A DNA stretch of 62,545 nt from Chloroflexota bacterium (GTDB lineage: Bacteria > Chloroflexota > Dehalococcoidia > Lucifugimonadales > UBA3495). Shown piece by piece: positions 9,362-55,269 of this stretch. The position numbers were made by a program, and so were the translations under genes. Numbering within the stretch: the first letter of the stretch is position 1; every line of letters starts with the position of its first letter. The stretch is taken from positions 1 to 62,545 of the forward strand of contig JAQBXL010000002.1 of assembly GCA_027624135.1 (NCBI GenBank), given 5' to 3'. The notes beneath the pieces are model-generated. The model was not told the DNA's origin and ran no database searches. It was given only the letters and a program-made list of their open reading frames with translations.

Positions 9362-10306
9362 TTGAGTCCGGAAGACATTCCCCAAAACAATCTGGAAGAA
9401 AACCGAAAAGACCTGGACCAAGCCGCCATCGACTTCCGTCAGCGCTACTACGGTCCAGATAACAACCCGGTGCCGCCCCCGGCCATGGCCGAATTGGCGC
9501 CTGAAGTGATGCGCCTGGTGGATTCGGTGATCTATGGCGAGATATACAACCGCCCCGCTGTAGATCTGAAGACACGCAGTCTCTGCACCATCGCAGCGCT
9601 CGTGGTGTTGGGCCATAGTCCTCAGATGATCAAACGCCATATCTCTGGCGCATTGCACATCGGAGTCACCCGTGAAGAGATATCGGAGATCATCGCCCAG
9701 ATGGTCTTCTATGGTGGCATGCCGGCGGCGGTGAACGCCTTCCGCATGGCCAAGGAAGCCTTCGACGAGTCGCCCGACGGCCAGCCAGGGACCGCGAAAC
9801 CACGTTCAACGGTTCACTATAAAGAGGAACCTGAGGACTCGGTCTACGGCGTCGCTCCGCCACCAGAACCGGCGGAGGAGTCGCCAGAGGAGGAGTCGCC
9901 AGCGGAGGCATCACCAGAGAAGGCATCAAGAGAAAATACTTCTGAATCTGAGTCCCGCATTAGGGCGCCGGAGCAGCCTCCGATGAAGGCCCAGCGGCCT
10001 CCGGGTCCAGCGGAAAGACCTCCATCTGATAGAAGTAGGAGAGAACGCGATGAAGTTAGGTTTCATCGGGACCGGCAACATGGGGAATCCAATGGCCGCC
10101 AATCTGATCAAAGCAGGCCATCAGCTAACCGTTCACGACCTTCGGCGGGAGGCGGCAACAAATCTTCTGGAGATGGGCGCAAATTGGGTGGACAGCCCAA
10201 AGGAGGCCGTCCAGGGAAACGAAGTGGTGTTCACGTCCCTTCCGGTGCCCCGGGACGTGGAGGCAGTGGTCCTGGGCGAAAACGGAATCCTGGAAGGGGC
10301 AAGTAA
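9362..10306 (+). CDS. Carboxymuconolactone decarboxylase (CMD/AhpD-fold) family protein with a long low-complexity C-terminal tail
   Basis: The N-terminal roughly 140 aa fit the CMD family (GEIYNRPAVDLKTRSLCTIAALVVLG...EISEIIAQMVFYGG). TTG start with GGAG 5 nt upstream. There is no stop until 10306, so the tail overlaps the next gene by 257 nt. Confidence 0.7.
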   Translation: MSPEDIPQNNLEENRKDLDQAAIDFRQRYYGPDNNPVPPPAMAELAPEVMRLVDSVIYGEIYNRPAVDLKTRSLCTIAALVVLGHSPQMIKRHISGALHIGVTREEISEIIAQMVFYGGMPAAVNAFRMAKEAFDESPDGQPGTAKPRSTVHYKEEPEDSVYGVAPPPEPAEESPEEESPAEASPEKASRENTSESESRIRAPEQPPMKAQRPPGPAERPPSDRSRRERDEVRFHRDRQHGESNGRQSDQSRPSANRSRPSAGGGNKSSGDGRKLGGQPKGGRPGKRSGVHVPSGAPGRGGSGPGRKRNPGRGK

Positions 10307-10943
10307 CGGCGCGGTCTTCTTCGATCTTTCCACCAACTCTCCAACCATGATCCGTCGGCTCCACGAGACCTGCGCTGCCAAGGGAGTCACACTTTTGGAT
10401 TCCCCGGTAAGCGGCGGGACCTACGGAGCAGCAGCAGGAACACTTGCGGTGATGGTCGGTGGCGACAAAGCTACGTTTGACCGATATAAGCCGATACTGG
10501 GGGCGATCGGCACGCACGTCGTCTACTGCGGCGATATCGGCAATGGCTCAGTTTGCAAGATCTGCAACAACCTGATGAGCATGGGCACCGGAGTCCTTTT
10601 GGCCGAGGCGTTGACCCTGGGCGTAAAGGCCGGGGTAGACCTGGGGATACTGGCCGACGTCATCAACAATAGCACCGGTGGGTCCAAGCGCCTGGCCGAC
10701 AAATTCCCCCGGTTCCTTTTTAAGGGCAATTTCGAGCCCGGTTTCGCCACCGCCCTCGCTGCCAAGGATGTACGTTTAGCAACCGACCTGGGCCGGGAAT
10801 ATGGGATACCGATGGAGCTTTCCAACCTGGTTGACCAGCGCCACGTGGAGGCACTGTTCCGAGGCTGGGGCGCAGAGGACTCCGACGCCGTAGCCAAGAT
10901 TCAAGAAGAGAAGTCCGGAATTCAGCTTCGCTTGCACGACTGA
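10050..10943 (+). CDS. NAD(P)-dependent 3-hydroxyisobutyrate / beta-hydroxyacid dehydrogenase family oxidoreductase
   Basis: 297 aa. MKLGFIGTGNMGNPMAANL Rossmann motif and HIBADH-like SPVSGG. Confidence 0.88.
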   Translation: MKLGFIGTGNMGNPMAANLIKAGHQLTVHDLRREAATNLLEMGANWVDSPKEAVQGNEVVFTSLPVPRDVEAVVLGENGILEGASNGAVFFDLSTNSPTMIRRLHETCAAKGVTLLDSPVSGGTYGAAAGTLAVMVGGDKATFDRYKPILGAIGTHVVYCGDIGNGSVCKICNNLMSMGTGVLLAEALTLGVKAGVDLGILADVINNSTGGSKRLADKFPRFLFKGNFEPGFATALAAKDVRLATDLGREYGIPMELSNLVDQRHVEALFRGWGAEDSDAVAKIQEEKSGIQLRLHD

Positions 10944-11005: not shown

Positions 11006-12049
11006 ATGACTACTAATGAAATGGAACGGTCCAAGATTGTGGAATCCAGTGACACAGTCGAGGCCATCGAAGAGTGTTACAGGATGGGGTGGAGCGACGG
11101 TCTGCCGGTGGTGCCGCCTGTCGACTACAAGGTCAGAGAGATGCTGGAAATGTCCGGGTTCACCGGCGAAGAGGAGATAATCTCCTTGGAGATGCGGAAC
11201 CGGGTGTTGACGTCGGAGAATGTGGCGGCCAACGCTGTGATGGCGGGTTGCCTCCCCGAGTATTTCCCGGTCCTGATCACCACCCTAAAGACATTGGAAG
11301 AAGAGAAGAACTTCGTTCACATGGCTTCGGCCTCCACCAGTTCTCCGGCCATCTTGATGGTGCTGAATGGACCGATCCGGGACCAGATAAGCGCCAACTA
11401 TAAAGACGGTCTACTTGGGCCGGGCAACCGGGCCAACGCCAGCTTGGGTCGTGCTATCCGCCTCTGTTTCATCAATGGCTTCGACGCCCGGCCTGGCACG
11501 CTCGACCGGGGAACTCTAGGCAATCCCAGCAAATACACCCTGTGCTTCGCCGAGAACGAGGAAGACTCCCCCTGGGAGCCGATGCACGTCGCACGGGGAT
11601 TCAAAAAGGAAGACAGCACCGTTACTGTTGCGGTCGCCTACAACCCAATCACCGTCAACAACTCCTACGGCCACACCGGTGAGTCAATCCTGGCAGCCAT
11701 CGCCGACACCCTCAAATCGGCCGCCATGTCCTTTCGGTTCCCGTCCCAGTGGGTGCTGGTCATCGGCCCGGAACATGCGATCACATTGAACGACGACGGG
11801 TGGACCAGAAAGGGGATCCAGGAATACATGATGGAGAACGCGGCCCGGCCCCAGAGTGAACTCATCCGATTGGGAATCGCCCAAGGACCGGAACGCCAAG
11901 GCGACGACAAGATCATCCGCCGCTGTGCCCAGGACCCTGAAGATATCCTAGTGCTCATGGGCGGCGGCACCGGCGGGCGAAACAGCGCCATCATCGACAC
12001 CACCCGGTTCAAGATCAGGACCACCAAGATCGGAGTCCCCAAGGAATAA
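11006..12049 (+). CDS. Conserved protein of unknown function (GWSDGLPVVPP motif)
   Basis: 347-aa ORF with RBS GGAGG and coding-like composition. I recognise no catalytic motif. Lies 136 nt upstream of the UGSC selenoprotein gene. Confidence 0.75.
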   Translation: MTTNEMERSKIVESSDTVEAIEECYRMGWSDGLPVVPPVDYKVREMLEMSGFTGEEEIISLEMRNRVLTSENVAANAVMAGCLPEYFPVLITTLKTLEEEKNFVHMASASTSSPAILMVLNGPIRDQISANYKDGLLGPGNRANASLGRAIRLCFINGFDARPGTLDRGTLGNPSKYTLCFAENEEDSPWEPMHVARGFKKEDSTVTVAVAYNPITVNNSYGHTGESILAAIADTLKSAAMSFRFPSQWVLVIGPEHAITLNDDGWTRKGIQEYMMENAARPQSELIRLGIAQGPERQGDDKIIRRCAQDPEDILVLMGGGTGGRNSAIIDTTRFKIRTTKIGVPKE

Positions 12050-12185
12050 CCGCCATCATTATTGGCAGGCAAGAAGACCGCCAGAGCCTTGCTTAATGCA
12101 GGCTCCAGTGTATGATTAGGGGAATCCAATCTTCTGGCTATCCAAACCGCCTGGAGCGGAGATAATCGTAAGTCTGGGAGGAATC

Positions 12186-12755
12186 ATGGCTGAGACCGTA
12201 ACAGTAAGAAACATGAGACTCGTTAACCCCACCGGAACGTCGTTGTCCTCGGGTGATTTCCAATTGAACGACCGTCCTAACTCCCTTTCGGGGATGACCT
12301 TGGGCCTGCTGGAGAATTCCAAGGCCAACTCGGATAAGGTTCTTTACGAACTGGGCCAGATGTTGAAAGAGAAGTACGACCTGAAAGACATCGTCTACTT
12401 CAACAAGCATTCAGCGTCCTTGCCCACCAAGCCCGAAGTGGTACAGGACATGGTGAACAAGATTGACGTCTTGATTACCGGGATCGGTGATTGAGGCTCT
12501 TGCAGTTCGTGCAGTGTGCACGACGGGATCGAGATGGAGCGCCTAGGTTTGCCGACCGCTTCGATTATCACCCATGTATTCAACAACACGGCCAAGGCCA
12601 TGACGCGCATGATGGGCGTGCCTGACTTCGAGTACATCGTCGCTGAGCACCCTCTATCTAGTTTGACCGACGAGCAGTGCCGGGAACGGGCTGAGACTCT
12701 CCTGCCCGACGTTGAGCGAATCCTCCTTGGGAGCGCAGTCGCCAACACCATCTAG
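12186..12755 (+). CDS. UGSC-family selenoprotein (Sec at codon 103; UxxCxxC motif)
   Basis: ORF-track fragments 12186..12494 and 12516..12755 share a frame and are joined by TGA 12492-12494. The read-through gives ...VLITGIGD-U-GSCSSCSVHDGIEMERLGLP.... RBS GGGAGG sits only before 12186. A SECIS-like hairpin follows the TGA, and the terminator comes after 12755. Confidence 0.8.
12507..12523 (+). promoter_or_regulatory. Candidate bacterial SECIS hairpin for the UGSC gene
   Basis: UCGUGCA-GUG-UGCACGA (7 bp, or 6 bp with loop AGUGU). Begins 12 nt after the UGA, with G/U in the apical loop. Confidence 0.6.
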
Positions 12756-12781
12756 GAGCGCAAACCCTACTGAGCAGCTAA

Positions 12782-12820
12782 CGGGATGCCCCGATGTAAT
12801 CAGGGCATCCCGTGTTTCGT
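12782..12820 (+). terminator. Intrinsic terminator after the UGSC gene
   Basis: Perfect 10-bp stem CGGGATGCCC/GGGCATCCCG with an 11-nt loop, followed by TGTTTCGT. Confidence 0.55.
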
Positions 12821-13023
12821 ATCTGGGACCTTCGGCTCAGGAGTCGAAGTCATGTATCGAGGGCCAGGTTTTTGGTTGAATCACCCCTGGCCCTGTGGTA
12901 CGATTCCGCGTGGATTGTTACCAATTTCACGAACTATTATTCCTTATTGTTTCGGATCGTTTCGTTGAAATTCTCCACCCCTAAATTCCCCATCCCAAGC
13001 CCGATATTTCAGGAGCCCAACTC

Positions 13024-13503
13024 ATGAGTGGGCTAGAACAGCGGATCCACGCAGCAGTCCATGGTCAGGCCCAACCGACCGTCACCGTATTGTCGTCCCT
13101 GCTCGCCGTCGAAGATGAGTTGGGGTACCTCCCTAAAGAGGCAGTCGAGTTCGTCGCAAACTTCTCTGACACTACGGTCAACGACGTTTGGGCGGTGGCC
13201 TCGTTCTATCCCAACTTCCGGTTCGTTCCCCCTACCGAACACGTCGTGGAAGTCTGCTGGGGCGCTTCCTGCCACGTCGTCGGGGCCATGGCAGCGTTCA
13301 GATCCGTTCTGGAAGCCGCCGGTATGGAAGCGGAGGGCGACCGGCCTGATAACCGGGTCGCCGTGAAGCTCAACACCTGTCTTGGGGCCTGCTCCCAAGC
13401 TCCTGTGATGTCGATGGATCACCACTTGGCTGGAAGAATCACCCCCGAATCAGCCGCAAAGAACGTCGCCCGCCTTCTCGAGCAGGACGGCCATGGCGCC
13501 TAG
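13024..13503 (+). CDS. NuoE-like [2Fe-2S] thioredoxin-fold subunit (FdsG/HoxE-like)
   Basis: 159 aa. VCWGASC...C..GACSQAP cysteine pattern. RBS AGGAG. Confidence 0.85.
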   Translation: MSGLEQRIHAAVHGQAQPTVTVLSSLLAVEDELGYLPKEAVEFVANFSDTTVNDVWAVASFYPNFRFVPPTEHVVEVCWGASCHVVGAMAAFRSVLEAAGMEAEGDRPDNRVAVKLNTCLGACSQAPVMSMDHHLAGRITPESAAKNVARLLEQDGHGA

Positions 13504-15220
13504 TTTCTTAGAGATTGGGATAGAGGCTGATCGCCGTTGGCAAGGACTTATCGCCGGTGAGCGTCCTTGGATCCGGATCGGAACCGCCCTCTGCGGTGAA
13601 GCCGCTGGGGCTTTTGAAGTGGCCGCTGCCACCGAATCAGCACTGGAGAGTCAGGGTGTCGCCGCGGAGGTAAGCCGCGTCGGCTGTCTGGGTCTTTGTT
13701 TTGCCGAGCCGCTCCTGGACGTGCAACTTCCTGGGGGGCACCGCATCTTCTATAGCAATGTAGACGCCGAGAAAGTTGGCGAGATAGTTTCCTCCCATGT
13801 TGCCGGTGGCACTCCCGTTAAATCTTTGGCCCTTGGGTACTTGCCTCAAGAAGGCAGCGACGAACCGCTTCCCGAAGGCATCCCCGACCTGAACCAACAC
13901 CCGATGCGGGTTTGGGAGAATCGAATCGCCCTCAGGAACGCCGGTAACATCGACCCGTTGGACATCTATCAATACGTGGCCAACGGCGGTTATCAGGCAC
14001 TGCACAAGACACTGACCAACCTGAGCCGGGCAGAGACCCTTGAAGAAGTAAAAGCGTCGGGACTCAGGGGCCGGGGCGGCGCTGCCTTCCCCACCGCCAC
14101 TAAGTGGAGTTTCTTGGCTGGGAATCCGGCGCCGGAGAAATACGTCCTCTGCAACTGCGAAGAGGGCGACCCGGGGGCGTTCAACGACAAAAACATCCTT
14201 GAGAGCGATCCAAACACCCTGCTGGAAGGGGTCATCATTGCCGGGTATGCCACCGGCGCCAGCAAGGGATACATCTTCATCCGCCACGGCCACGACGGAC
14301 CCATCGAGCGCTGCCGGGCCGCCGTTCGCCAAGCTAAGGAATTGGGCTTGCTGGGCGAGAACATCATGGGCTCGGACTTCAGCTACGATGTTGAAGTCGC
14401 TCTGACCGGCGATTCCTACGTGGCCGGCGAAGAAACGGCGCTTATGGAGGCAATCGAAGGCAAAAGAGCCATGCCCCGCTTCCGCCCTCCATTTCCCGCG
14501 CAAGTGGGCCTCTTCGGCAAACCAACCAACATCAACAACGTCAAAACACTGGCTTACGTCCCAGAGATCGTCTCCAAGGGAGGTAAGTGGTTCGCCGACA
14601 TCGGCCATGACACCAGCACCGGCACGGCCATCCTCTGCCTCTCTGGCTCCTTGAATTACACCGGAATGGTGGAAGTTCCCTTGGGCATCAATCTGAAAGA
14701 CGTGATCTTTGAGGCCGCCGGGGGGATGCGGAATGGCAAGGCCCTGAAGCTGCTCCAGACAGGCGGTCCGCTGGGAGGCGTGCTGGGCGCAGACAGCGTG
14801 GACATATTGCTGGACTTCGAAGTGCTGAGAGCCGCCGGGGCCATCATGGGCTCAGGAGGTATCATTGCTGCAGACGAGACTGCCTGTGTGGTGGACCTGA
14901 CCCGGTCGCTGATCGCCTTCTGCCAATACGAATCCTGCGGGAAATGCTTCCCCTGCCGTATGGGCATGAGCCATCTTCTGGAGGTTCTGGAGCGGATCTG
15001 CCGCCTGGAAGGCACCGATGAAGACCTAAGCCTGATGCGAACCATTGGCGAAAACATGCAGGCCGGTTCCCTCTGCGGTCACGGACAGTTGGGCTTCAAC
15101 CCTGTGTCCTCGGCACTGCGCTACTTCGGGTCCGAATTTGAAACGCACATCGTGGACCGGACGTGCCCCACCGGGACCTGCTCCCTGCCACGATACTCCC
15201 CTGTGGCCTCGCGCCGCTAA
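13493..15220 (+). CDS. NuoF-like NAD(H)/FMN-binding [4Fe-4S] subunit with an N-terminal thioredoxin-like domain (FdsB-like)
   Basis: 575 aa. GLRGRGGAAFPTATKW, CNCEEGDPGAF and ESCGKCFPCRMG motifs. The start overlaps the preceding gene by 11 nt. Confidence 0.88.
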   Translation: MAPSFLEIGIEADRRWQGLIAGERPWIRIGTALCGEAAGAFEVAAATESALESQGVAAEVSRVGCLGLCFAEPLLDVQLPGGHRIFYSNVDAEKVGEIVSSHVAGGTPVKSLALGYLPQEGSDEPLPEGIPDLNQHPMRVWENRIALRNAGNIDPLDIYQYVANGGYQALHKTLTNLSRAETLEEVKASGLRGRGGAAFPTATKWSFLAGNPAPEKYVLCNCEEGDPGAFNDKNILESDPNTLLEGVIIAGYATGASKGYIFIRHGHDGPIERCRAAVRQAKELGLLGENIMGSDFSYDVEVALTGDSYVAGEETALMEAIEGKRAMPRFRPPFPAQVGLFGKPTNINNVKTLAYVPEIVSKGGKWFADIGHDTSTGTAILCLSGSLNYTGMVEVPLGINLKDVIFEAAGGMRNGKALKLLQTGGPLGGVLGADSVDILLDFEVLRAAGAIMGSGGIIAADETACVVDLTRSLIAFCQYESCGKCFPCRMGMSHLLEVLERICRLEGTDEDLSLMRTIGENMQAGSLCGHGQLGFNPVSSALRYFGSEFETHIVDRTCPTGTCSLPRYSPVASRR

Positions 15221-15285
15221 CCCAATCCGACTAATGACCGGTCTGGCTGTTGAAAGCTGGTCCGGCGAGAGATAGAGGCTGATAA

Positions 15286-18108
15286 TTGGCCGACGACATC
15301 ACCATCAGCTTTGATGGCCAAGAGTTCAAGACCCAGGCGGGCAAGATGGTCCTGGAAGCAGCCATCCAAGCCGGTGTCTACATTCCCTACCTTTGTTACC
15401 ACCCCGGAATGGAGTCCTACGGCGCCTGCCGGATGTGCGTGGTCAGCGTGGAAGGAGGGCGCGGCTTTCCCGCCTCCTGCACCCTGCCCGCCGCCGACGG
15501 CATGAAGGTCCAGACCGCTTCAGCCGAGGTCAATGACCTGCGCAAGTCGGTCATGGAGATGCTGATCGCTGAACATCCCAGCGGCTGCCTGACCTGCCAC
15601 CGGGTCGACATCTGCGGCCCCACCGATGTGTGTCTGCGCCACGTTTCGGTCAACGACCGCTGCGTCACCTGCCCCAAGAACGAACGGTGCGAACTCAAGG
15701 ACACTGTTCGTTATCTGGGTATGAACCTGGAATCTCCGCTGAATTACAAATACCGGCAGATACCATTGGAAGTGGCCGATCCATTTTATGACCGCGACTA
15801 CAACCTGTGCATCGTTTGCGGACGCTGTGTCCGTGCCTGCGAGGAACTTCGGGGCGACGATGCCATCGGGTTCACCATGCGCAGCGGACAGGCGTTGGTG
15901 GGCACTTCGTTCGGCACATCCCTGCTGGAGTCGGGCTGCGAATTCTGCGGAGCCTGCATCGATGTCTGTCCCGTGGGCGCTTTGGTCGAGAGGGACAATA
16001 AATGGGATAAACCCCGGACCGTCGAGCGAACCATCTGCCCGCTCTGCCCGGTGGGCTGCCAGTTGAACGTGGAGTACGACAACGAGGGTAAGCTGACCCG
16101 GGTCGTGCCTGAGATCAACTCACCAGCCAACCATGGCCAGGCCTGCTTCAAGGGCAAGTTCGGACTGCAATTCGTGAACGATGCCAGCCGCTTGCACTCG
16201 CCATTGGTGCGCCGGGACGGCCAACTGACCGAAGCGACTTGGGACGAGGCTTTGGAGGTGGTCGCCACTCGTTTTGCCGAGTATTCCGGTGAAGAGTTTG
16301 CTTTTCTCACCTCGCCCAACAGCACCAACGAAGAGCACTACCTGGCCCAGAAATTCGCCCGCTCGGCCATGAAGTCCAACAACATCGATCAGACCTCCAA
16401 TGTTCAGCCTGATCTGACCCGAGCTTTAGAGCAATCCCTGGGCTATGCCGGAGCCACTAACCCCATCTGGGACCTGGAAAAATCGGGGTGCATCTTAGTT
16501 TTCTGCAGCAACGTTACCGAAGAACATAACGTGGTCGGAGTGCCCATAAAACGGGCAGCGCGGAAGAACGCCAAACTGGTGGTTATCGACTCCAGAGAAG
16601 TGGAGTTGACCCGCTACGCGCATCTCTGGTTGCGTCCGGCGCCCGGCACGGAACAATTGCTACTGGGCGGGCTGCTCAAATCAGTGATTGATCAAGGGCT
16701 TCAAGATGATGAATGGCTGGCGGAGAATTGTGAGAGTCCAGCCACGCTCTATTACGCCCTCAGCGCCCTTGATCTGGAAGAAGTTTCGAAAGTAACCCAG
16801 GTCACTGTCGCGGACATCGCCGAAGCCGCCCGTCTGTACGGAGAAGCCGAAACGAGCGCTCTGGTCTACGCTCTAGACAATATTCAGCCCCGATTGGCCA
16901 GGGACACCGTTCTGTCCCTAGTGAATCTGGTTCTGGTGACGGGAAACCTGGGCAAGCCAAATGCCGGCATCTACCCGATGCGCTCTGGCGCAAATGAGCA
17001 AGGCGCCTGGGATGTGGGCTGCGTGCCCGACCGGCTGCCAGGCTACCGCCGCGTATCAGACTCACAGGACCGGCAGGAAGTAGAGGTGATCTGGGGCACT
17101 ACCATCCCCGAGACCCCTGGATTGGGTCTGACCCAGATGATTGATGGCTTTAGGGACGGCCAGGTCAAAGCGGCCTTTATCATCGGGGACAGTCCTAATT
17201 TCAGCAACGGCAAGCTGGGGGACGGGCTGGCCGCCTTAGACAATCTGGATTTTCTAGTGGTCTGCGACACGTTCTTGACCGACGCCGCCCAACGGGCCGA
17301 TGTTGTATTGCCGAGAGCAACCTTCGCCGAGAAAGATGGCACATACACAAATCTGGAGCGGCGTATTCAGCGTCTGAAACCAGGCAGGGAATTGCCTGAA
17401 GGAGGCGCGCGTTCGGATTGGCGGGTGATTCGCGATGTCGCCCACAAGATGGGAGTTCCCGGCTTTCAACTTGCATCGCCCTCTGAGACAATGGACGAGA
17501 TTGCCCGCGTGGCGCCAATTTATGCCGGGATATCTTACCGGACTCTAGCAAACCAGGGTGGTTTGGTATTCAAGACCGATCTGACCAGCCCACAGCCAAC
17601 GCAAGTGCTGTACGCCAGTCGCGAAGACCGGGGGCTACAGTGGCCGGTTCTGAGCGATGGCAAGGGAACGCCAATCTTGTACGAAGGTGGCTTCAACGAC
17701 CGGAAAGCAGAGCCCATCACACCGGCATTCGTGGCGGCGGAGGATCGAGCAGACCCTGATTTCCCACTCTGGTTCGTTCCCGGCAGGGTTCTGCTGCAGC
17801 AAGAACGGGATATCGAGATAGTCAAAGGACGCCGAAATACCATCCGCAGGGATGAATTCGTGGAATTGAATCCCGCTGATGCGGCCTCTTGGTCTATCAC
17901 GGAAGGCGCTAGGGTGGAAGTGGATATGCTTATTGGGCGGCTTGCTGGATTGGCTCGAATCAACGAATCAATCCCTGTCGGTGTCGTCGCTTCCACGTCC
18001 CTCTTCGGGCAATTGGCGGTCGACCTGCAAGGCTCCGAAGAGATGGAGGCCGCAACCAGAGTGCCAGGTTTGGACATCCGCCGGGCACGGATCAACAAGA
18101 TCGGTTAG
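15286..18108 (+). CDS. NuoG / NAD-dependent formate-dehydrogenase alpha-like Fe-S molybdopterin-fold subunit lacking the catalytic Sec/Cys-His pair
   Basis: 940 aa with a TTG start after GAGG. N-terminal 2Fe-2S and multiple 4Fe-4S motifs, and CPLCPVGC...CFKGK. The FdhF-like segments align (TGNLGKPNAGIYPMRSGANEQG). The ...ARVUHGPS... position reads SNVQPDLT. Confidence 0.85.
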   Translation: MADDITISFDGQEFKTQAGKMVLEAAIQAGVYIPYLCYHPGMESYGACRMCVVSVEGGRGFPASCTLPAADGMKVQTASAEVNDLRKSVMEMLIAEHPSGCLTCHRVDICGPTDVCLRHVSVNDRCVTCPKNERCELKDTVRYLGMNLESPLNYKYRQIPLEVADPFYDRDYNLCIVCGRCVRACEELRGDDAIGFTMRSGQALVGTSFGTSLLESGCEFCGACIDVCPVGALVERDNKWDKPRTVERTICPLCPVGCQLNVEYDNEGKLTRVVPEINSPANHGQACFKGKFGLQFVNDASRLHSPLVRRDGQLTEATWDEALEVVATRFAEYSGEEFAFLTSPNSTNEEHYLAQKFARSAMKSNNIDQTSNVQPDLTRALEQSLGYAGATNPIWDLEKSGCILVFCSNVTEEHNVVGVPIKRAARKNAKLVVIDSREVELTRYAHLWLRPAPGTEQLLLGGLLKSVIDQGLQDDEWLAENCESPATLYYALSALDLEEVSKVTQVTVADIAEAARLYGEAETSALVYALDNIQPRLARDTVLSLVNLVLVTGNLGKPNAGIYPMRSGANEQGAWDVGCVPDRLPGYRRVSDSQDRQEVEVIWGTTIPETPGLGLTQMIDGFRDGQVKAAFIIGDSPNFSNGKLGDGLAALDNLDFLVVCDTFLTDAAQRADVVLPRATFAEKDGTYTNLERRIQRLKPGRELPEGGARSDWRVIRDVAHKMGVPGFQLASPSETMDEIARVAPIYAGISYRTLANQGGLVFKTDLTSPQPTQVLYASREDRGLQWPVLSDGKGTPILYEGGFNDRKAEPITPAFVAAEDRADPDFPLWFVPGRVLLQQERDIEIVKGRRNTIRRDEFVELNPADAASWSITEGARVEVDMLIGRLAGLARINESIPVGVVASTSLFGQLAVDLQGSEEMEAATRVPGLDIRRARINKIG

Positions 18109-18184
18109 ACGAAGCTAGATATTGACTGCCACTGGGCCAAAAGGCCAAGTTGCGATAATCATGGCACGAATCCAAGGAGTAAGA

Positions 18185-18952
18185 ATGGCAGAGGTAACAA
18201 CCACGAGGCAGGCCGGCGCTCCGGACCTGACCCCCAACCAAGCGTTCCCAACGGCCAAACTGGTGGAACGCCGGGACGTAACCGAAGACCTGATGGTCAT
18301 CAAGCTGGAACCGTCGGAGCAGTTCAACTTCAAGCCTGGCCAGTACTGCACCTTGGGACTGGGCAAGATTGAACGGGCCTATTCAATAGTCTCGGCACCA
18401 TATGAGAAGAACCTTGAAATCTTCGTGGAACTGGTGCCAGATGGAGAATTGACCCCCCGCATGTGGGATCTGAAGGTCGGTGATCGCATGTCGGTCCGGC
18501 CCAGGGCCAAGGGTATCTTTACGCTTGACCGAAAGATGCACCACCACTTCATGCTATCAACAGTCACCGGAGTGGCCCCGTCGGTAAGCATGGTTCGCCA
18601 GTACCTGCACGACGGCGCCGATGAGAACCACGTTTTCTACATCATGTACGGCGCCAGCTACATCGACGAATTGACCTACGACGTTGAGTTCAATCAACTG
18701 GCCAAAGAGCATCCCGAGACCGTAAAGTTCGTCCCTACGATCAGCCGCCCAACTGAGGCTAAAAACGCCGGTTGGAAGGGTGTCACTGGGCGGGTTAACA
18801 CAATTGCCGAGGAATACTTGGCGAAGTTTAATCTCCCCAAGGACGATACCAAGGTGTACGCTTGCGGCCACCCTGGAATGATCGAAGAGATGAAAGAGAA
18901 GCTTCCACCCCAGGGTTGGAACTTCATCGAAGAGCGCTTCTGGAAACCCTAA
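18185..18952 (+). CDS. Ferredoxin-NADP+ reductase (FNR/Fpr family)
   Basis: RAYSIVS FAD motif and TVTGVAP NADP motif. Start set at ATG 18185, 5 nt after AGGAG. Confidence 0.85.
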   Translation: MAEVTTTRQAGAPDLTPNQAFPTAKLVERRDVTEDLMVIKLEPSEQFNFKPGQYCTLGLGKIERAYSIVSAPYEKNLEIFVELVPDGELTPRMWDLKVGDRMSVRPRAKGIFTLDRKMHHHFMLSTVTGVAPSVSMVRQYLHDGADENHVFYIMYGASYIDELTYDVEFNQLAKEHPETVKFVPTISRPTEAKNAGWKGVTGRVNTIAEEYLAKFNLPKDDTKVYACGHPGMIEEMKEKLPPQGWNFIEERFWKP

Positions 18953-21657: not shown

Positions 21658-21806
21658 CTCCTGTGTATTTAGCCTCTTGAATCAGCCCCTTTTCTCGGGA
21701 CAAACTTGGGTATAAGATTCGCCAGGGATTTTGACAACCGGTTCTGGTTGGATAGATCATTGGCGGCAGTCGCTCCCAGATTCTTCCAGAGAAGTCGGAG
21801 GATAGA

Positions 21807-22166
21807 TTGAGTCAGACAATCGAATTCTACTGGTGGCCCCGTTGATCGAGCTGCCGTAAAGTAAGAGAGTTGCTCTTACAGAAGGGACTCGAAGTATCGG
21901 ACCGTGACTTCTTCAAAGACGCTTTAAGTGAGGACGAGGTCCAGGAGTTGGCTGCCATGGCCGGCGCTGAGAATATCTTCGCCCGGCGCAGTCCCAGTCT
22001 CAAGAAGTTGGGCCTGGCTGACAAAGTCCTCTCGGACGACGAGATGATTAATCTGATGCTGCAAGAACCCAAGTTGATGCGCCGTCCGCTGCTCAAAGTG
22101 GGTGACAAGATAATGGTCGGGGCTGGGAACGCTGCGGTAGAAGAGGCCATTGCCGAAGCTGGCTAG
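21807..22166 (+). CDS. ArsC/Spx/YffB-family thioredoxin-fold selenoprotein (Sec at codon 13; UxxC)
   Basis: TTG 21807 lies 5 nt after GGAGG. My translation is MSQTIEFYWWPR-U-SSCRKVRELLLQKGLEV..., which continues in frame into ORF 21870..22166. TGA 21843-21845 sits at the family's first CxxC cysteine. MRRPLL motif is present. Confidence 0.78.
21861..21879 (+). promoter_or_regulatory. Candidate bacterial SECIS hairpin for the ArsC-like gene
   Basis: Perfect 7-bp stem GUAAGAG/CUCUUAC with loop AGUUG. Starts 15 nt after the UGA. Confidence 0.6.
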
Positions 22167-48765: not shown

Positions 48766-48902
48766 TTTCCGCTTTGTCAGGCGTCGAATTCCGTTGACAC
48801 CCAACAGAGCGAGATGTATCATCTTGAGCACGAAACGAGTCTGATTTAGCTATTAGGCTTACAGTGCCCGCGTGCCGTAGCCTTATGTTTCTTCCCACGA
48901 TA

Positions 48903-49304
48903 ATGGTCTCAGCATTTAACCCCGAAGTCTTCACGCAGAACTGGACCGCGGTAGCTATTTCCGCGGTTGTCGCCACTATGGCTATCGGTGGCATGTTCAG
49001 CGCTTCGCGCATGCTCTCGTCCAGGCGTCACTCGGACGCTAAACTGACCACCTACGAATGCGGCATCCCTCCTACTCCCTACGCCTGGTCCAACATCAAC
49101 GTCCGGTTCTATATCTTTGCCATACTGTTCTTGATCTTTGATGTTGAAGCGGTATTCCTGTTTCCCTGGGCAGTAATCTTCATGCAGGAAAAGATAAACG
49201 AGGCCAATTCAATGCCCTTCTACGCCATGATGATGTTCCTGGGAGTGCTGGGCTTCGCCATCGTTTACGCCTGGAAAAAGGGAGTCCTCGAATGGCAGAG
49301 ATAA
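48903..49304 (+). CDS. nuoA: NADH-quinone oxidoreductase subunit A
   Basis: YECGIPP...[23 protein letters not shown]. The start is ambiguous (GTG 48864, ATG 48885 or ATG 48903). Confidence 0.9.
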
Positions 49305-49825
49305 TCATCGGACCAGAGGGATCCGGAAACCAGCCCGGCCCCAGTTTGTACGATCAAAACATCGCTGGGAAGATGCCTGGCATCATCACCACGTCCACCG
49401 ACCAACTCTTCGCGATGGCCCGCAAGTCCTCCCTCTGGACACTCTCCTTCGGGTTGGCCTGCTGCGCCATCGAGATGATGTCCACCTACATGGCCCACTA
49501 CGACTTCGACCGCTTCGGAGTTGTCACTTGGCCTTCGCCACGGCAGGCGGATGTCATGATTGTGTCGGGCACGGTGGTCAAGAAGATGGCCGACCCCATC
49601 CGGCTGCTCTACGAACAGATGCCCGAGCCCAAGTGGGTGATCGCCATGGGTAGTTGCGCCACCAACGGAGGGCCTTACTACCGGTCCTATTCAGTCGTCA
49701 TGGGTGTCGACCACATCATTCCAGTTGACGTCTACGTTCCCGGCTGTCCGCCCCGCCCTGAGGCGCTGCTTTATGGGATCCTGAAGCTGCAAGAAAAGAT
49801 CATGCGGGACGCCGGGAAAAAATAG
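49292..49825 (+). CDS. nuoB: NADH-quinone oxidoreductase subunit B
   Basis: [15 protein letters not shown] and GCPPRPE N2-cluster motifs. Confidence 0.96.
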
Positions 49826-50436
49826 TGGCTGCAGACGAAGAGAACGTCGAGGAAACCCAGACCGAAGAAAGCACGGCGTCACCCAAAAAGCCTGCTGCGG
49901 CGCCGGCTCCGGCTGGCCATGGCACTGCTGGCCACGGGGCGGAACAGCCCCCTGCCGACCCACTGGCGGCTCTGACTGCTGCGGGGAGGGAGTTGCTGGA
50001 CGTATATCTGGAGGTTCTTGATGAATTTGATCCCCAGGCAGGCGCTTTGGATGACATCCCCCAGGTCAGCATCGAGAAGCAGCACGTTCTTAGAGCGTGC
50101 CAATTGATCAAAGAAGACCCACGCATCGCAGCTAAGATGCTACTCTGCTTGTCCTGCGTCGACTACACTGAATACTTCCAGGTGGTCTACATTCTCCAGT
50201 CGCTGGAGCCGGAGCGCACGTTGGCCCTGCGGATCGACGTCCCCTACAGCGATGCGAGCGTCCCATCGGTGACGCCGGTGTGGCGGGCGGCGAATTGGTA
50301 TGAGAGAGAAGCCCATGACCTGTTCGGAGTGGACTTCGACGGCCACTCGGACCTGACACCCCTCATTCTCTACGAAGGGTTTGAGGGATTCCCCGGCCGG
50401 AGAGAATTTCCGTTTAACGAGTATCAGGAGTTTTAG
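49825..50436 (+). CDS. nuoC: NADH-quinone oxidoreductase subunit C (with an Ala/Pro-rich N-terminal extension)
   Basis: WRAANWYEREAHDLFGVDFDGH signature. Confidence 0.9.
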   Translation: MAADEENVEETQTEESTASPKKPAAAPAPAGHGTAGHGAEQPPADPLAALTAAGRELLDVYLEVLDEFDPQAGALDDIPQVSIEKQHVLRACQLIKEDPRIAAKMLLCLSCVDYTEYFQVVYILQSLEPERTLALRIDVPYSDASVPSVTPVWRAANWYEREAHDLFGVDFDGHSDLTPLILYEGFEGFPGRREFPFNEYQEF

Positions 50437-50439
50437 AGA

Positions 50440-50691
50440 TTGATGGATGCTTTGGTCCTAACGGCAAAGATTAATCATGATGAGGCCCGGTACGTGGCCC
50501 GAATCGAGGATTTGGACTTGGAAGGTGAAGGCGAGTCATTGGAAGCCGCTCAAGACGAATTGATTCAGGTGATGCGGGCGTGGATCGAGACCCATGACGG
50601 AACCGATACATTGGCAGAGGCTCTTGCCGCTGCCGGGTACCTGGGTGTTGATGAGGAGACCGAGCTTCAGCTGGAGTTTGCCGAGGCTTAA
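50440..50691 (+). CDS. Small HicB/UPF0150-like protein inserted in the nuo operon
   Basis: 83 aa. ...RYVARIEDLDLEGEGESLEAAQDELIQVMRAWIE fits the HicB-like pattern (Y.A....L...G.G.T.EEA...L.....WIE). Confidence 0.45.
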   Translation: MMDALVLTAKINHDEARYVARIEDLDLEGEGESLEAAQDELIQVMRAWIETHDGTDTLAEALAAAGYLGVDEETELQLEFAEA

Positions 50692-50714
50692 ACCAGGCTA
50701 AACAGTGAGTAACC

Positions 50715-51101
50715 TTGCCCAAGAATCTCAGATCCGGGGCTAAAAAATTTCGATTCGGGAAGAAGTCCTTTGACCGCATCGTCTATCAGATCGAAGAATC
50801 TGGAGACGGGACCGATCATCAGGCGGTATGTCCCGAATTGGTGATTACCGGATTCGGTGACACCGCCGAGGAAGCCAAAGATGCGCTGCGCCAGCAGGTA
50901 TCCGAATACCTGCAAGATTGTGAAAAATTAGGAGTGCTGGACGAAACTCTGATCGAAGCGGGCTTCTACTTCAATGACGAAGTCTGGATGAGTAACGAGG
51001 TTGTGCCGGCTCCGGATCCCAAGATACGATTCATCGGCCGACCGTCCGACACTTCCGCCGACACTCTCGCCGAGACTTCTGGCGATATCACGCCTGAATA
51101 A
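50715..51101 (+). CDS. Second small HicB/UPF0150-like protein inserted in the nuo operon
   Basis: 128 aa with a TTG start. ...HQAVCPELVITGFGDTAEEAKDALRQQVSEYLQ fits the HicB-like pattern. Confidence 0.45.
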   Translation: MPKNLRSGAKKFRFGKKSFDRIVYQIEESGDGTDHQAVCPELVITGFGDTAEEAKDALRQQVSEYLQDCEKLGVLDETLIEAGFYFNDEVWMSNEVVPAPDPKIRFIGRPSDTSADTLAETSGDITPE

Positions 51102-51103
51102 AT

Positions 51104-52234
51104 ATGACGCAGATTTCCGAGAATAGAACGCCCGACGCCGAACCCGTCGAGATGCTGCTCAACATGGGGCCGCAGCATCCCTCGACTCATGGCGTTTTCC
51201 GCATGGTGCTGTGGGTTGACGGCGAGAAAGTCGTGGACGTCGAACCTCACATAGGCTACCTCCACCGGGGCTCGGAGAAGCTATGCGAGGGTGAGCAATA
51301 TCATCAGGTCATCACCCTGTTCGACCGCTTGGACTACCTCGCCAATTTCAACAACGAACAGGTCTATTGCCGCGCAGTGGAAAAGCTCATGGGGTTGGAG
51401 GTATCCGAACGAAGCGAGTACATCCGGGTCATCCTGTGCGAACTGAATCGGATCGCCAGTCACATGCTTTTCCTAGCTACGATGGGACTGGATGCCGGGG
51501 CCATGACTCCATCGATGATCTGCTTCCGGGGGAGAGAGCGCATCCAGGCGCTGTTCGAGTCCGTCTCCGGCGCTCGCATGATGCACAACTATTTCCGCAT
51601 CGGTGGCCTGAAAGAGGACGTGCCCGACGACTTCGTTCCCCAGGTTAGGGATCTATTGAAGCTGATCAAAGAGGATACCGATGAGTCGGATCGGCTACTC
51701 AGTTTCAACGAGATATTCCTGGCCAGGCTGAAGAACATCGCGGCGATCTCAGCAGAGGACGCCATCGATTTCGGACTGACCGGACCGTGCCTTCGGGCGT
51801 CGGGCGTGGATTACGACGTTCGGAAGGCGGCGCCTTATTCGGTCTACGACCGTTTCGACTTCGATATTCCTGTGGGATTGGATGGGGATTGCTGGGACCG
51901 GTATTACCTGAGGGTTCAAGAGATCTATCAGTCGGTGAGAATAGTCGAACAGGCATTGGATCAACTGCCCGATGGCGAGGTTGCTTCTTCTCTGGGACGC
52001 CGCCTGATCCGCCCACCCGCTGGCGAGGTCTACGTACGGGCAGAGAACCCCAGAGGCGAGATCGGCGTCTACCTGATCAGCGACGGCTCAGACCGGCCCT
52101 ACCGGATCAAGGTTCGGCCTCCATCGTTCTGTAATCTGTCGGCGTTGAAGCTCATGATGAAAGATTGCTGGATCGCCGACGCCGTGGTGATCTTGGGCGC
52201 GCTGGACATCGTTCTGGGTGAGGTGGACCGCTGA
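51104..52234 (+). CDS. nuoD: NADH-quinone oxidoreductase subunit D
   Basis: 376 aa. LNMGPQHPSTHGVFR and HIGYLHRG motifs. Confidence 0.96.
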   Translation: MTQISENRTPDAEPVEMLLNMGPQHPSTHGVFRMVLWVDGEKVVDVEPHIGYLHRGSEKLCEGEQYHQVITLFDRLDYLANFNNEQVYCRAVEKLMGLEVSERSEYIRVILCELNRIASHMLFLATMGLDAGAMTPSMICFRGRERIQALFESVSGARMMHNYFRIGGLKEDVPDDFVPQVRDLLKLIKEDTDESDRLLSFNEIFLARLKNIAAISAEDAIDFGLTGPCLRASGVDYDVRKAAPYSVYDRFDFDIPVGLDGDCWDRYYLRVQEIYQSVRIVEQALDQLPDGEVASSLGRRLIRPPAGEVYVRAENPRGEIGVYLISDGSDRPYRIKVRPPSFCNLSALKLMMKDCWIADAVVILGALDIVLGEVDR

Positions 52235-53400: not shown

Positions 53401-53403
53401 GGG

Positions 53404-53967: not shown

Positions 53968-54014
53968 CAACCGTCCTGATTCAACCGGCCCGATTCAGTG
54001 GGAAGACCCAATGG

Positions 54015-54299
54015 GTGCTTTGCATGCCTAAACGAGAAGACGAACGGCAAAGGAACTTGAGGGGGCGTCACGTTGAGGCCTGCACCTGTCAGGACTGCAC
54101 TGACCGGTTCCTTAAGAAAAAGAAGATAACACCCAGCCGGAACAAACCGGGAATCACGCGGACTGGCGGTGAGAAGATCGCCAAGCACCCGCGCGACTGC
54201 GAGTGCGCGAGTTGCGCTCTGTTGCGGACCATGGGGAACCTGCCGCAGTTGGACAAAGGACCGGGTGGATTCCTAAAGAGACTGTTTCGCAAGAAATAA
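54015..54299 (+). CDS. Small, very basic protein with a duplicated HxxxCxCxxC motif (hypothetical)
   Basis: 94-aa ORF (GTG 54015 or ATG 54024) in the 465-nt nuoI-nuoJ gap. HVEACTCQDC and HPRDCECASC have identical spacing. No strong RBS. Confidence 0.4.
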   Translation: MLCMPKREDERQRNLRGRHVEACTCQDCTDRFLKKKKITPSRNKPGITRTGGEKIAKHPRDCECASCALLRTMGNLPQLDKGPGGFLKRLFRKK

Positions 54300-54348
54300 A
54301 GTCTTAGCCGGGCCTAGATAAACGCCCGGACAATCGAATAGAGATCAA

Positions 54349-54921: not shown

Positions 54922-54924
54922 GAC

Positions 54925-55245: not shown

Positions 55246-55269
55246 TTGCCACGACGCAGATGCTATCTG

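What the first reader, a model, noticed from the sequence alone, without database searches (positions are those of the whole stretch)
12186..12755. In-frame UGA fuses two ORF-track fragments into a UGSC-type selenoprotein with a UxxCxxC motif
ORFs 12186..12494 and 12516..12755 are in the same frame (offset 330 nt). Only TGA 12492-12494 and seven sense codons separate them.

Reading the TGA as Sec gives one 189-aa protein: ...KIDVLITGIGD-U-GSCSSCSVHDGIEMERLGLPTASIITHVF....

Supporting context:
- The only Shine-Dalgarno sequence (GGGAGG) precedes 12186. There is none before the GTG at 12516.
- The only terminator follows 12755.
- A 7-bp hairpin with a G/U apical loop starts 12 nt after the UGA (12507-12523), which is bacterial SECIS geometry.

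'UGSC-containing protein' is, from memory, a selenoprotein family of unknown function reported from marine metagenomes. U-GS-C-SS-C is a UxxCxxC arrangement. As I recall, that is the Sec motif of the substrate-specific B selenoproteins of glycine/sarcosine/betaine and proline reductases (GrdB/GrdF/GrdH/PrdB). The following IEMERLGLP resembles their ...KEIER.GIP... segment. This would be a short, stand-alone version of that redox domain.
Basis: partly seen in the sequence, partly recalled or inferred. Interest (0 to 1): 0.85.

Follow-up and report, generated by a model that had tools for sequence, protein, structure and literature searches.

The report
UGSC selenoprotein gene with SECIS
The two short ORFs are one gene for a selenocysteine-containing protein of the already catalogued UGSC family, so the finding is real but ordinary; what is less well known is that the gene almost always sits beside an uncharacterised partner gene.

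Summary
ORFs 12186-12494 and 12516-12755 are one 189-aa gene with an in-frame TGA (12492-12494). The fused protein matches Pfam PF24696 (UGSC; E 7.5e-55, whole model, across the junction) and clears the curated cut-off of NCBIfam NF041046. Cys-form homologues span the junction with Cys at the U column. 120 other metagenome loci carry the same in-frame TGA followed by about 80-90 in-frame codons. The hairpin at 12507-12523 is a genuine SECIS-type element: it is paired in 92% of cells, shows compensatory changes that even alter the encoded amino acids, has a GUN loop, and is absent from Cys forms. TGA is a normal stop elsewhere in the window, and a second selenoprotein gene (ArsC-like, TGA 21843-21845) lies 9 kb away. 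UGSC is a known family of unknown function. The predicted fold is flavodoxin-like, not thioredoxin-like. UGSC is adjacent to an orphan 347-aa gene (11006-12049) in 171 of 172 loci and is sometimes fused to it, which suggests a two-subunit redox enzyme.

The parts
12176..12181 (+). Shine-Dalgarno sequence GGGAGG, 4 nt upstream of the ATG
   Evidence: Read directly from the sequence.
12186..12755 (+). UGSC-family selenoprotein gene, 189 aa, Sec at residue 103. The public record calls it as two genes.
   Evidence: PF24696 E 7.5e-55 over model positions 2-171 of 172. NF041046 scores 141.4 bits against a cut-off of 125. The ENA gene calls are split into 102 aa and 68 aa, both hitting PF24696.
12492..12494 (+). 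In-frame UGA read as selenocysteine (U of the UGSC motif)
   Evidence: Cys occupies this column in full-length homologues. The same TGA is found in 120 other loci. TGA is an ordinary stop in 9 of 38 window genes.
12507..12523 (+). Bacterial-type SECIS hairpin. Stem 12507-12513 pairs with 12517-12523 (conserved core 12508-12512 with 12518-12522). Apical loop GUG at 12514-12516.
   Evidence: 92% of cells are paired, against 19-55% for slid controls. 88 cells have changes on both sides and 0 of 500 shuffles reach the observed score. RNAalifold predicts the same helix. The hairpin and its GUN loop are present in 110 of 115 Sec forms and largely absent in 82 Cys forms.
12781..12813 (+). 11-bp G+C-rich hairpin after the TAG stop, followed by GUUUCG; terminator-like but weak
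   Evidence: dG -30.1 kcal/mol for the folded 12756-12830 segment, z -3.3. Not reported by the strict terminator scan.
11006..12049 (+). Conserved partner gene: 347-aa orphan protein with invariant DGLP and AGC (Cys82) motifs, 136 nt upstream of UGSC
   Evidence: Adjacent to UGSC on the same strand in 171 of 172 loci. Fused to UGSC in L080 and in P0189, P0198, P0205, P0213 and P0247. No Pfam, NCBIfam or PDB match.

Best explanation
Positions 12186-12755 are a single gene for a UGSC-family selenoprotein. Shown: translation can start at ATG 12186 behind a GGGAGG Shine-Dalgarno sequence; the reading frame and the homology both run straight through UGA 12492-12494; a covariation-supported hairpin with a GU-starting apical loop begins 12 nt downstream. 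Inferred from established bacterial Sec decoding: SelB carrying Sec-tRNA(Sec) binds that hairpin while the ribosome sits on the UGA and inserts Sec as residue 103, and translation ends at TAG 12753-12755. Modelled on a Cys-form homologue: the protein is a five-stranded flavodoxin-like alpha/beta domain in which Sec103 sits at the end of strand 3 and the start of helix 3, with invariant Cys106 one turn later. This is the geometry of a redox-active selenenylsulfide pair. Inferred, at about 40% confidence for this step: UGSC is the small redox subunit of a two-subunit enzyme whose large subunit is the adjacent 347-aa orphan protein. Sec attacks a substrate or an oxidised Cys held by the partner (invariant Cys82), Cys106 resolves the adduct to a Se-S bond, and a thioredoxin-type or NAD(P)H-linked system re-reduces it. 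That is analogous to PrdB with PrdA and GrdB with GrdE. UGSC shares a roughly 60-residue Sec-site module with PrdB/GrdB, but it is not a member of that family.
For: Identity: PF24696 E 7.5e-55 across the junction; NF041046 above its curated cut-off. Junction: Cys-form homologues read GDCGSCS, while the closest relatives are cut at GIGD or restart at MERLG. Recoding: 120 further loci carry the in-frame TGA, all 121 including the window hit a UGSC HMM, and 107 span the junction. The genetic code is standard. A second selenoprotein gene is in the window. SECIS. Fold: AF2 pLDDT 89, pTM 0.84, five beta-alpha units; best PDB matches are flavodoxin, WrbA and FMN-reductase type folds. Partner: adjacent in 171 of 172 loci in either gene order; top neighbour cluster in 110 of 125 loci; natural fusions. 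Redox supply: trxB-trxA-partner-UGSC on an Arthrobacter plasmid with a 4-nt overlap between trxA and the partner; TrxR adjacent in L012 and in the Sec-form locus L095; recurrent C-terminal NifU-like CxxC fusions. PrdB/GrdB link: 35, 18, 13, 11 and 2 of 73 UGSC members weakly hit PrdB, GrdB, GrdF, TIGR01918 and GrdH models; hhalign aligns the Sec columns over 62 columns with score 27.6, against a shuffled mean of 11.7, sd 2.2 and maximum 18.2.
Against: No experiment exists for any UGSC protein. No selA, selB, selC or selD gene and no tRNA-Sec lie in the 62-kb window. No Rfam model matches the hairpin. The hhalign probability is only 6%, and a generic Rossmann-type model (geranylgeranyl reductase) is also hit weakly by 25 of 73 members, so part of the PrdB signal may be a generic strand-Gly-loop-helix resemblance. 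The partner shows no similarity to PrdA or GrdE. A thioredoxin system is adjacent in only 3 of about 100 long loci. The structure was modelled on a 41%-identical Cys form, not on the window protein, from only 11 sequences. The Cys-form control loci are mostly high-GC Actinomycetota, so the SECIS control is not phylogenetically matched.
Confidence: 0.85

Rival explanations
1. UGSC is a stand-alone thioredoxin-fold thiol/selenol oxidoreductase with a UxxC motif that works alone as a general antioxidant or disulfide reductant. This is the default view in the selenoproteome literature.
For: [quoted passage not shown] The UxxC placement at a helix N-terminus is the same kind of motif as in thioredoxins.
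Against: The AF2 model is an all-parallel five beta-alpha flavodoxin-like domain, and no thioredoxin appears among the listed top 50 PDB matches. Near-obligate adjacency and fusion with a 347-aa partner argue against a free-standing generalist.
Confidence: 0.15
2. UGSC is a true miniature member of the GrdB/PrdB family, that is, the selenoprotein B subunit of an unrecognised glycine- or proline-type reductase with a pyruvoyl partner.
For: There are recurrent weak hits to five GrdB/PrdB models. The Sec columns align with a collinear E..G[IL]PT motif. A trxB-trxA neighbourhood resembling grd operons occurs in one record.
Against: Scores are far below curated cut-offs (13.6 against 602 bits). Similarity is confined to about 60 residues. 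The third Cys of UxxCxxC is not conserved. The partner has no detectable similarity to GrdE or PrdA, or to any other family. The hosts are mostly aerobes (SAR202-like Chloroflexota, Actinomycetota, haloarchaea), not Stickland fermenters.
Confidence: 0.1
3. The TGA is a genuine stop, a sequencing error or a pseudogene lesion, and the two ORFs are separate or dead.
For: The public gene calls treat them as two genes. No Sec machinery is visible in the window.
Against: The same TGA at the same column occurs in 120 independent contigs with an intact downstream frame. Cys occupies that column in homologues. There is no SD before GTG 12516. A covarying SECIS hairpin is found only in the TGA forms. 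The identical sequence occurs on contigs of two samples.
Confidence: 0.02

Closest known systems
UGSC family (seleno)protein (NCBIfam NF041046; Pfam PF24696); 'UGSC-containing protein' of Zhang and Gladyshev (PMC1976440, PMC2398784)
   Same: Full-length HMM match above curated cut-offs. Invariant U/C-G-S-C motif. Both Sec and Cys forms exist. SECIS lies immediately downstream. Found in environmental aquatic and soil bacteria.
   Different: Nothing essential: this is an ordinary member, apparently from a SAR202/Dehalococcoidia-like Chloroflexota contig. The public record mis-calls it as two genes.
PrdB / GrdB / GrdF / GrdH selenoprotein B subunits of D-proline and glycine/sarcosine/betaine reductases (TIGR04483, TIGR01917, PF07355)
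   Same: There is a hydrophobic strand, then U-x-x-C at a helix start, then E at U+15 and G/K-[IL]-P-T at U+18 to U+21, aligned without gaps. Both pair with a larger partner subunit. A thioredoxin system is occasionally adjacent.
   Different: Similarity is limited to about 60 residues, and scores are far below family cut-offs. UGSC is 180 aa, against about 240 for PrdB and about 430 for GrdB. The UxxCxxC third Cys is not conserved. The partner is unrelated to the pyruvoyl proenzymes PrdA and GrdE. The hosts are largely aerobic.
Escherichia coli fdhF-type bacterial SECIS
   Same: Hairpin inside the coding sequence, about 11-13 nt 3' of the UGA, with G/U at the start of a small apical loop. The spacing and loop rule for fdhF are from established knowledge, not tested here.
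   Different: The stem is short, with a 5-6-bp conserved core and a 3-nt loop. No bulged U is evident. No Rfam model covers it.
Flavodoxin-like fold redox proteins (flavodoxin, WrbA, FMN reductases)
   Same: Five parallel beta-alpha units. These are the best Foldseek matches.
   Different: TM is at most 0.49, and there is no flavin-binding motif. The active site is a Sec/Cys pair.

Membership tests
UGSC family (PF24696 / NF041046) | Whole-protein HMM score above the curated cut-off, covering the whole model | tested here: met
   PF24696 scores 186.1 bits against a cut-off of 25, over model positions 2-171 of 172. NF041046 (equivalog) scores 141.4 bits against 125.
UGSC family (PF24696 / NF041046) | U or C followed by G-S-C at the conserved column after the strand ...[GS]xGD | tested here: met
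   GIGD-U-GSC here. G101, D102, S105 and S107 are invariant, and C103, G104 and C106 are at least 90% conserved in 73 members. Cys forms read GDCGSCS.
UGSC family (PF24696 / NF041046) | Selenium actually incorporated at residue 103 | not testable with these tools
   Needs 75Se labelling or mass spectrometry.
Bacterial SECIS element | Stem-loop starting about 11-13 nt 3' of the UGA, within the ORF | tested here: met
   The stem runs 12507-12523, 12 nt after the UGA. It is at the same position in 110 of 115 unique Sec-form sequences.
Bacterial SECIS element | G (usually GU) at the start of the apical loop | tested here: met
   The loop is GUG here and GUN in 110 of 115 Sec forms. It is CCG or CGG in 69 of 82 Cys forms.
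Bacterial SECIS element | Base pairing maintained by compensatory substitutions | tested here: met
   Four pairs have changes on both sides (for example UA:56, GU:37, GC:18; GC:91, CG:23). 0 of 500 shuffles reach the observed score. RNAalifold agrees. The covarying columns lie outside the bases fixed by the search pattern.
Bacterial SECIS element | Host encodes selA, selB, selC and selD | tested here: inconclusive
   None is in the 62-kb window and the genome is incomplete. Indirect support comes from a second in-frame-TGA ArsC-family gene with its own hairpin.
GrdB/PrdB selenoprotein B (TIGR01917, TIGR04483, PF07355) | HMM score above the curated cut-off | tested here: not met
   TIGR01917 scores 13.6 bits against 602.2. 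The best E among 73 members is 3.4e-5. PF07355 is not hit, but that model ends just before Sec.
GrdB/PrdB selenoprotein B (TIGR01917, TIGR04483, PF07355) | Sec in a U-x-x-C motif that aligns with the family's Sec | tested here: met
   hhalign places GDCGSC on PxCPxC over 62 columns with score 27.6, 7 SD above column shuffles.
GrdB/PrdB selenoprotein B (TIGR01917, TIGR04483, PF07355) | Conserved UxxCxxC (the GrdB motif according to PMC13188914) | tested here: not met
   The third position is C in about half of 115 unique Sec forms, G in 35, A in about 20, S in 5 and W in 2. It is mostly A or S in Cys forms.
GrdB/PrdB selenoprotein B (TIGR01917, TIGR04483, PF07355) | Partnered with a pyruvoyl proenzyme (GrdE or PrdA) | tested here: not met
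   The conserved partner has no recurrent hit to any Pfam or NCBIfam model, nor to any PDB sequence.
Thioredoxin fold (literature suggestion) | Mixed sheet beta-alpha-beta-alpha-beta-beta-alpha with CxxC after strand 1; structural matches to thioredoxins | tested here: not met
   The AF2 model has five alternating strand-helix units with the motif after strand 3. The listed Foldseek matches are flavodoxin-like folds and none is a thioredoxin.

The most novel reading that the evidence does not exclude
UGSC and its obligate 347-aa orphan partner form a previously unrecognised, very widespread two-subunit Sec/Cys-dependent reductase. About 4,700 UGSC clusters at 50% identity and more than 7,700 partner homologues are found, in Chloroflexota/SAR202, Actinomycetota, Proteobacteria and haloarchaea. 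The Sec-site module would share ancestry with PrdB/GrdB, while the substrate-binding subunit is a new fold. This would be an aerobic-world counterpart of the Stickland reductases, acting on a still unknown small molecule.
Probability: 0.3. Interest if true: 0.65.

Novelty: new member of a known kind. Interest (0 to 1): 0.3.

Why it matters
For annotation, the public record splits this gene in two, and the ArsC-like gene 9 kb away is also cut at its TGA, so the contig's selenoproteome is under-called. For biology, UGSC is one of the most abundant environmental selenoprotein families and still has no function.
- a near-obligate, sometimes fused, uncurated partner family;
- a flavodoxin-like rather than thioredoxin-like fold;
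- a Sec-site module shared locally with PrdB/GrdB;
- occasional linkage to thioredoxin-system genes and fusion to NifU-like CxxC domains.

The locus also shows clearly how an RNA structure constrains protein sequence: residues 108-113 change in concert (C/H, G/L, A/A, W/H) to keep the SECIS stem paired.

Tried and rejected
- **Rfam:** the gathering scan of the window and a permissive scan of 12440-12600 gave no SECIS family match, so no curated model applies.
- **PDB sequence searches:** UGSC gave only a marginal ArsA P-loop match at E 0.005, which I judged to be a generic Gly-loop resemblance. The partner gave nothing.
- **Genome-collection scan:** it used the pattern GDCGSCS and returned only Cys forms. 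Sec forms needed a separate TGA-containing DNA pattern, and the first attempt had too few specified bases.
- **Formate-dehydrogenase link:** functional linkage to the downstream NuoE/NuoF/FdsA-like genes is rejected as a family feature, because they follow UGSC only in close relatives (L148, L194, L104, L131, L186).
- **Catabolic cluster:** the Zn-ADH, SDR, amidohydrolase-2, ALDH and ABC-transporter neighbourhood is common in Actinomycetota Cys-form loci but not in Sec-form loci, so I did not use it for the mechanism.
- **Neighbour clustering:** single linkage collapsed into one spurious component and was redone with stricter edges.
- **Long upstream ORFs in Sec-form loci:** these are not fusions, apart from a partial case in L129.
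- **Extended hhalign:** the alignment beyond the roughly 62-column core is not confident.
- **Partner fold search:** only TM of about 0.2 to Toblerone-fold hydrolases, PrpD and chorismatase, which is not interpretable.
- **CMD ORF at 9362:** I considered it as a third selenoprotein and rejected it, because it has no in-frame TGA.

Full report
**1. Observation**

- ATG 12186 is preceded by GGGAGG (12176-12181).
- The frame runs to TGA 12492-12494, continues for seven sense codons to GTG 12516, and ends at TAG 12753-12755.
- Reading the TGA through gives 189 aa with U at residue 103: ...KIDVLITGIGD-U-GSCSSCSVHDGIEMERLGLP....
- The 7-bp hairpin UCGUGCA-GUG-UGCACGA lies at 12507-12523, 12 nt after the UGA, and is part of the MFE structure.
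- One point is only partly confirmed. The hairpin after the stop (12781-12813) is strong (z -3.3 for the folded 12756-12830 segment), but it lacks a proper U-tract and is not found by the strict terminator scan.

**2. Identity**

With U replaced by C, the fused protein matches Pfam PF24696 'UGSC family' at E 7.5e-55 over model positions 2-171 of 172, so the match crosses the junction. It also scores 141.4 bits against the NCBIfam equivalog NF041046 'UGSC family (seleno)protein', whose cut-off is 125.

A search of 5.8 billion proteins returned two classes of relatives.
- Full-length proteins of 175-195 aa read GDCGSCS, with Cys at the U column. P0005 is named 'UGSC family (seleno)protein' by NCBI.
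- Fragments of the closest relatives (59-94% identity) either stop exactly at ...GIGD or begin at MERLG. These are Sec forms cut by gene callers.
- P0002 reads GDWGSCSSCS, which is a TGA translated as Trp.

The window's own public record (ENA ERZ23495043, scaffold_1026) calls the gene as 102-aa and 68-aa pieces, both hitting PF24696.

**3. Is the UGA really recoded?**

All 121 fused translations, including the window's, hit a UGSC HMM with median E 8e-58, and 107 span the junction. The remainder are cut by contig ends. The frame after the TGA stays open for about 80-90 codons in nearly all of them.

TGA terminates 9 of 38 Pfam-supported genes in the window, so the genetic code is standard.

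A second gene in the window has the same signature. It is an ArsC/Spx-family ORF (TTG 21808 to TAG 22166) with an in-frame TGA at 21843-21845 in ...FYWWPR-U-SSC-RKV.... It has a GGAGGA SD and a 7-bp hairpin, GUAAGAG-AGUUG-CUCUUAC, at 21861-21879. The fused protein hits PF03960 at E 2.2e-18 across the U.

No sel genes or tRNA-Sec lie on this 62-kb contig, so the machinery itself could not be checked.

**4. SECIS**

The 115 unique Sec-form sequences were compared with 82 Cys-form genes, taken from the 80 genome loci L001-L080.

| | 6-7 of 7 stem pairs at TGA+15 to +31 | Loop |
|---|---|---|
| Sec forms (115 unique) | 110 | GUN in 110 |
| Cys forms (82) | 12 (most have 3-5) | CCG or CGG in 69 |

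On the 119-sequence alignment A3, 92% of cells are paired, against 19-55% when the 3' arm is slid. 88 cells carry changes on both sides, and none of 500 shuffles reaches the observed covariation. RNAalifold independently predicts the same helix, with 4 of 5 pairs compensatory. The covarying columns (24-28 and 32-36) lie in the free N{16} part of the search pattern, so the pattern did not impose them.

The compensatory changes rewrite the protein. S-C-S-V-H-D, S-G-S-V-L-D, A-A-S-L-A-D and S-W-S-V-H-D are alternative peptides that all keep the stem.

Rfam has no matching model.

**5. What is known**

'UGSC-containing protein' has been listed as a prokaryotic selenoprotein of unknown function since 2007 (PMC1976440). 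In the GOS data it was one of the most abundant families, with 255 Sec forms against 21 Cys forms. It was enriched in non-marine aquatic samples, was said to 'likely' have a Trx-like fold, and was seen fused to a domain called 'Unknown_1' (PMC2398784). A 2026 review still lists it, under NF041046, among the selenoproteins whose functions 'remain largely uncharacterized' (PMC13188914). The finding is therefore a new member of a known kind.

**6. Fold**

The model is confident: pLDDT 89.3 and pTM 0.84. It has five strand-helix units, and the Cys pair (Cys98 and Cys101 in P0005 numbering) sits between strand E90-96 and helix H99-114.

The best PDB matches are flavodoxin-like folds: the catalase C-terminal domain, TIR, flavodoxin, WrbA, FMN reductases and MttC. 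TM is at most 0.49, and no thioredoxin appears among the listed matches. The 'Trx-like fold' suggestion is not supported.

**7. The GrdB/PrdB idea**

The window protein weakly hits TIGR01917 (GrdB), E 0.022, residues 89-144 against model positions 333-387. Scanning 73 diverse UGSC members one by one, the most recurrent weak hits after UGSC itself are these.

| NCBIfam model | Members hit (of 73) | Best E |
|---|---|---|
| PrdB (TIGR04483) | 35 | 3.8e-4 |
| GrdB (TIGR01917) | 18 | 3.4e-5 |
| GrdF (NF040794) | 13 | 2e-4 |
| TIGR01918 | 11 | 9.5e-4 |
| GrdH (NF040795) | 2 | 4.1e-3 |
| Geranylgeranyl reductase (generic Rossmann type) | 25 | 1.4e-4 |

Pfam GRDB is never hit, but that model ends just before the Sec residue.

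I built a profile from 22 PrdB-like and GrdB sequences in the GOS supplementary dataset; all four that I tested hit Pfam GRDB. hhalign aligns the two Sec columns over 62 columns, with E at U+15 and [IL]-P-T at U+19 to U+21 coinciding without gaps. The scores compare as follows.

| Comparison | hhalign score |
|---|---|
| UGSC vs PrdB-like/GrdB (real) | 27.6 |
| UGSC vs 150 column-shuffled PrdB alignments | mean 11.7, sd 2.2, max 18.2 |
| UGSC vs reversed PrdB | 11.6 |
| Unrelated partner family vs UGSC / vs PrdB | 17.6 / 14.7 |

The HH probability is only 6%, and the alignment is not confident beyond this core. My conclusion is that UGSC shares a Sec-site module with PrdB/GrdB, through either local homology or strong convergence, but it is not a member of that family.

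**8. Context and likely mechanism**

Of the window's neighbours, only the upstream 347-aa ORF (11006-12049) is conserved elsewhere.
- It is found in 78 of 80 Cys-form and 96 of 120 Sec-form loci.
- It is adjacent on the same strand in 171 of 172 loci where both genes are detected, upstream in 76 and downstream in 95.
- It is the top neighbour cluster, in 110 of 125 loci.
- It is fused to UGSC in a single ORF in L080 (565 aa) and in five of the 150 listed family representatives (P0189, P0198, P0205, P0213, P0247). It is very probably the 'Unknown_1' domain of the 2008 paper, but that figure is held only as an image.

This partner has more than 7,700 homologues, all 'hypothetical'. RefSeq plasmid records, including haloarchaeal ones, also call it hypothetical. 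It has no Pfam, NCBIfam or PDB match, even when 34 diverse members are scanned, and no significant structural neighbour. Invariant residues include DGLP and A-G-C82. The conserved loops 30-39 and 158-172 are the low-confidence parts of the model, which is consistent with interface or active-site loops.

Hints about the electron supply:
- trxB-trxA-partner-UGSC on an Arthrobacter plasmid, with trxA overlapping the partner's start by 4 nt;
- a TrxR gene adjacent to the pair in L012 and in the Sec-form locus L095;
- recurrent C-terminal NifU-like CxxC fusions.

The formate-dehydrogenase-like genes downstream in the window follow UGSC only in close relatives.

I therefore propose that UGSC is the small Sec/Cys redox subunit of a two-subunit enzyme with the orphan partner. 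Sec103 would be the nucleophile, Cys106 the resolving residue, and a thioredoxin-type system would recycle the pair. The recoding and the identity are shown. The enzymology is inference, at roughly 40% confidence.

**9. Organism and family size**

The closest named partner homologues (75-77% identity) are from SAR202 cluster, Dehalococcoidia and Chloroflexi MAGs. The window is 57.8% G+C. An exhaustive profile search finds 4,699 UGSC representatives at the 50%-identity cluster level with E up to 0.001.

**10. Verdict**

The finding is real, correctly interpreted in its main claim, and already known as a kind. Its interest lies in the side results on the family's partner, fold and relationship to the selenoprotein B reductases.

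Noticed in passing
window 21797-22166 (+): A second selenoprotein gene. It is an ArsC/Spx-family ORF with SD GGAGGA 21797-21802, TTG start 21808 and TAG 22164-22166, and an in-frame TGA at 21843-21845 in FYWWPR-U-SSC-RKV. A 7-bp hairpin GUAAGAG-AGUUG-CUCUUAC lies at 21861-21879. The public record calls only the C-terminal 69 aa. The fused protein hits PF03960 at E 2.2e-18.
   Followed up: partly
window 11006-12049 (+); loci L001-L202: A 347-aa orphan protein with more than 7,700 homologues and no Pfam, NCBIfam or PDB match. It is almost always adjacent to UGSC, in either order, and is sometimes fused to it (L080:7974-9668; P0189, P0198, P0205, P0213, P0247). It is also present with UGSC in haloarchaeal megaplasmids (Natrinema; L206).
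   Followed up: yes
window 12507-12523 and alignment A3: The SECIS stem dictates protein sequence. Residues at U+5 to U+10 switch between S-C-S-V-H-D, S-G-S-V-L-D, A-A-S-L-A-D and S-W-S-V-H-D so that the stem stays paired. Cys forms are freed from this constraint and are mostly A-A-A-V-A-D.
   Followed up: yes
window 9362-10306 (+): A carboxymuconolactone-decarboxylase (PF02627) ORF has a long Pro/Glu-rich tail that overlaps the next gene (10050-10943, 3-hydroxyisobutyrate-dehydrogenase-like) by 256 nt in another frame. No gene is called over this stretch in the public record. There is no in-frame TGA.
   Followed up: no
window 13024-18952 (+): A NuoE-like 2Fe-2S protein, a NuoF-like protein, a 940-aa molybdopterin oxidoreductase (formate-dehydrogenase alpha type, uninterrupted ORF, so presumably a Cys form) and an FNR-like FAD/NAD oxidoreductase lie directly downstream of UGSC. 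This arrangement is conserved only in close relatives (L148, L194, L104, L131, L186).
   Followed up: partly
window about 48864-60342 (+): The nuo operon runs A, B, C, two small unannotated ORFs, D, H, I, J, K, L, M, N, with no nuoE, F or G inside it. The only NuoE/F-like genes on the contig sit next to the formate-dehydrogenase-like gene.
   Followed up: no
L205 (Arthrobacter sp. ERGS1:01 plasmid NZ_CP012477.1) 4662-7836: trxB-trxA-partner-UGSC form an apparent operon, with trxA overlapping the partner by 4 nt. This UGSC carries a C-terminal NifU-like CxxC domain (P0018). Similar fusions of about 270-285 aa recur among family representatives (P0154, P0155, P0163, P0169, P0221, P0242, P0268).
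   Followed up: partly
Pfam PF07355 (GRDB) versus GOS PrdB-like sequences: The Pfam GRDB model (347 positions) ends just before the selenocysteine. The Sec-site module and everything C-terminal to it are therefore invisible to Pfam searches, probably a legacy of seed sequences truncated at TGA.
   Followed up: partly
L001-L080 (Cys-form loci, mostly Actinomycetota): The UGSC-partner pair often sits among Zn-dependent alcohol dehydrogenase (61 loci), SDR (57), amidohydrolase-2 (43), family-5 ABC substrate-binding protein (36) and aldehyde dehydrogenase (36) genes. This is a catabolic-island signature that is not seen around the Sec forms. L012 and L064 carry two UGSC copies.
   Followed up: partly
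P0002: A database protein reads GDWGSCSSCS, a Sec-form UGSC whose TGA was translated as Trp, apparently by a code-4 gene call. It shows how such genes enter protein databases with a wrong residue.
   Followed up: no
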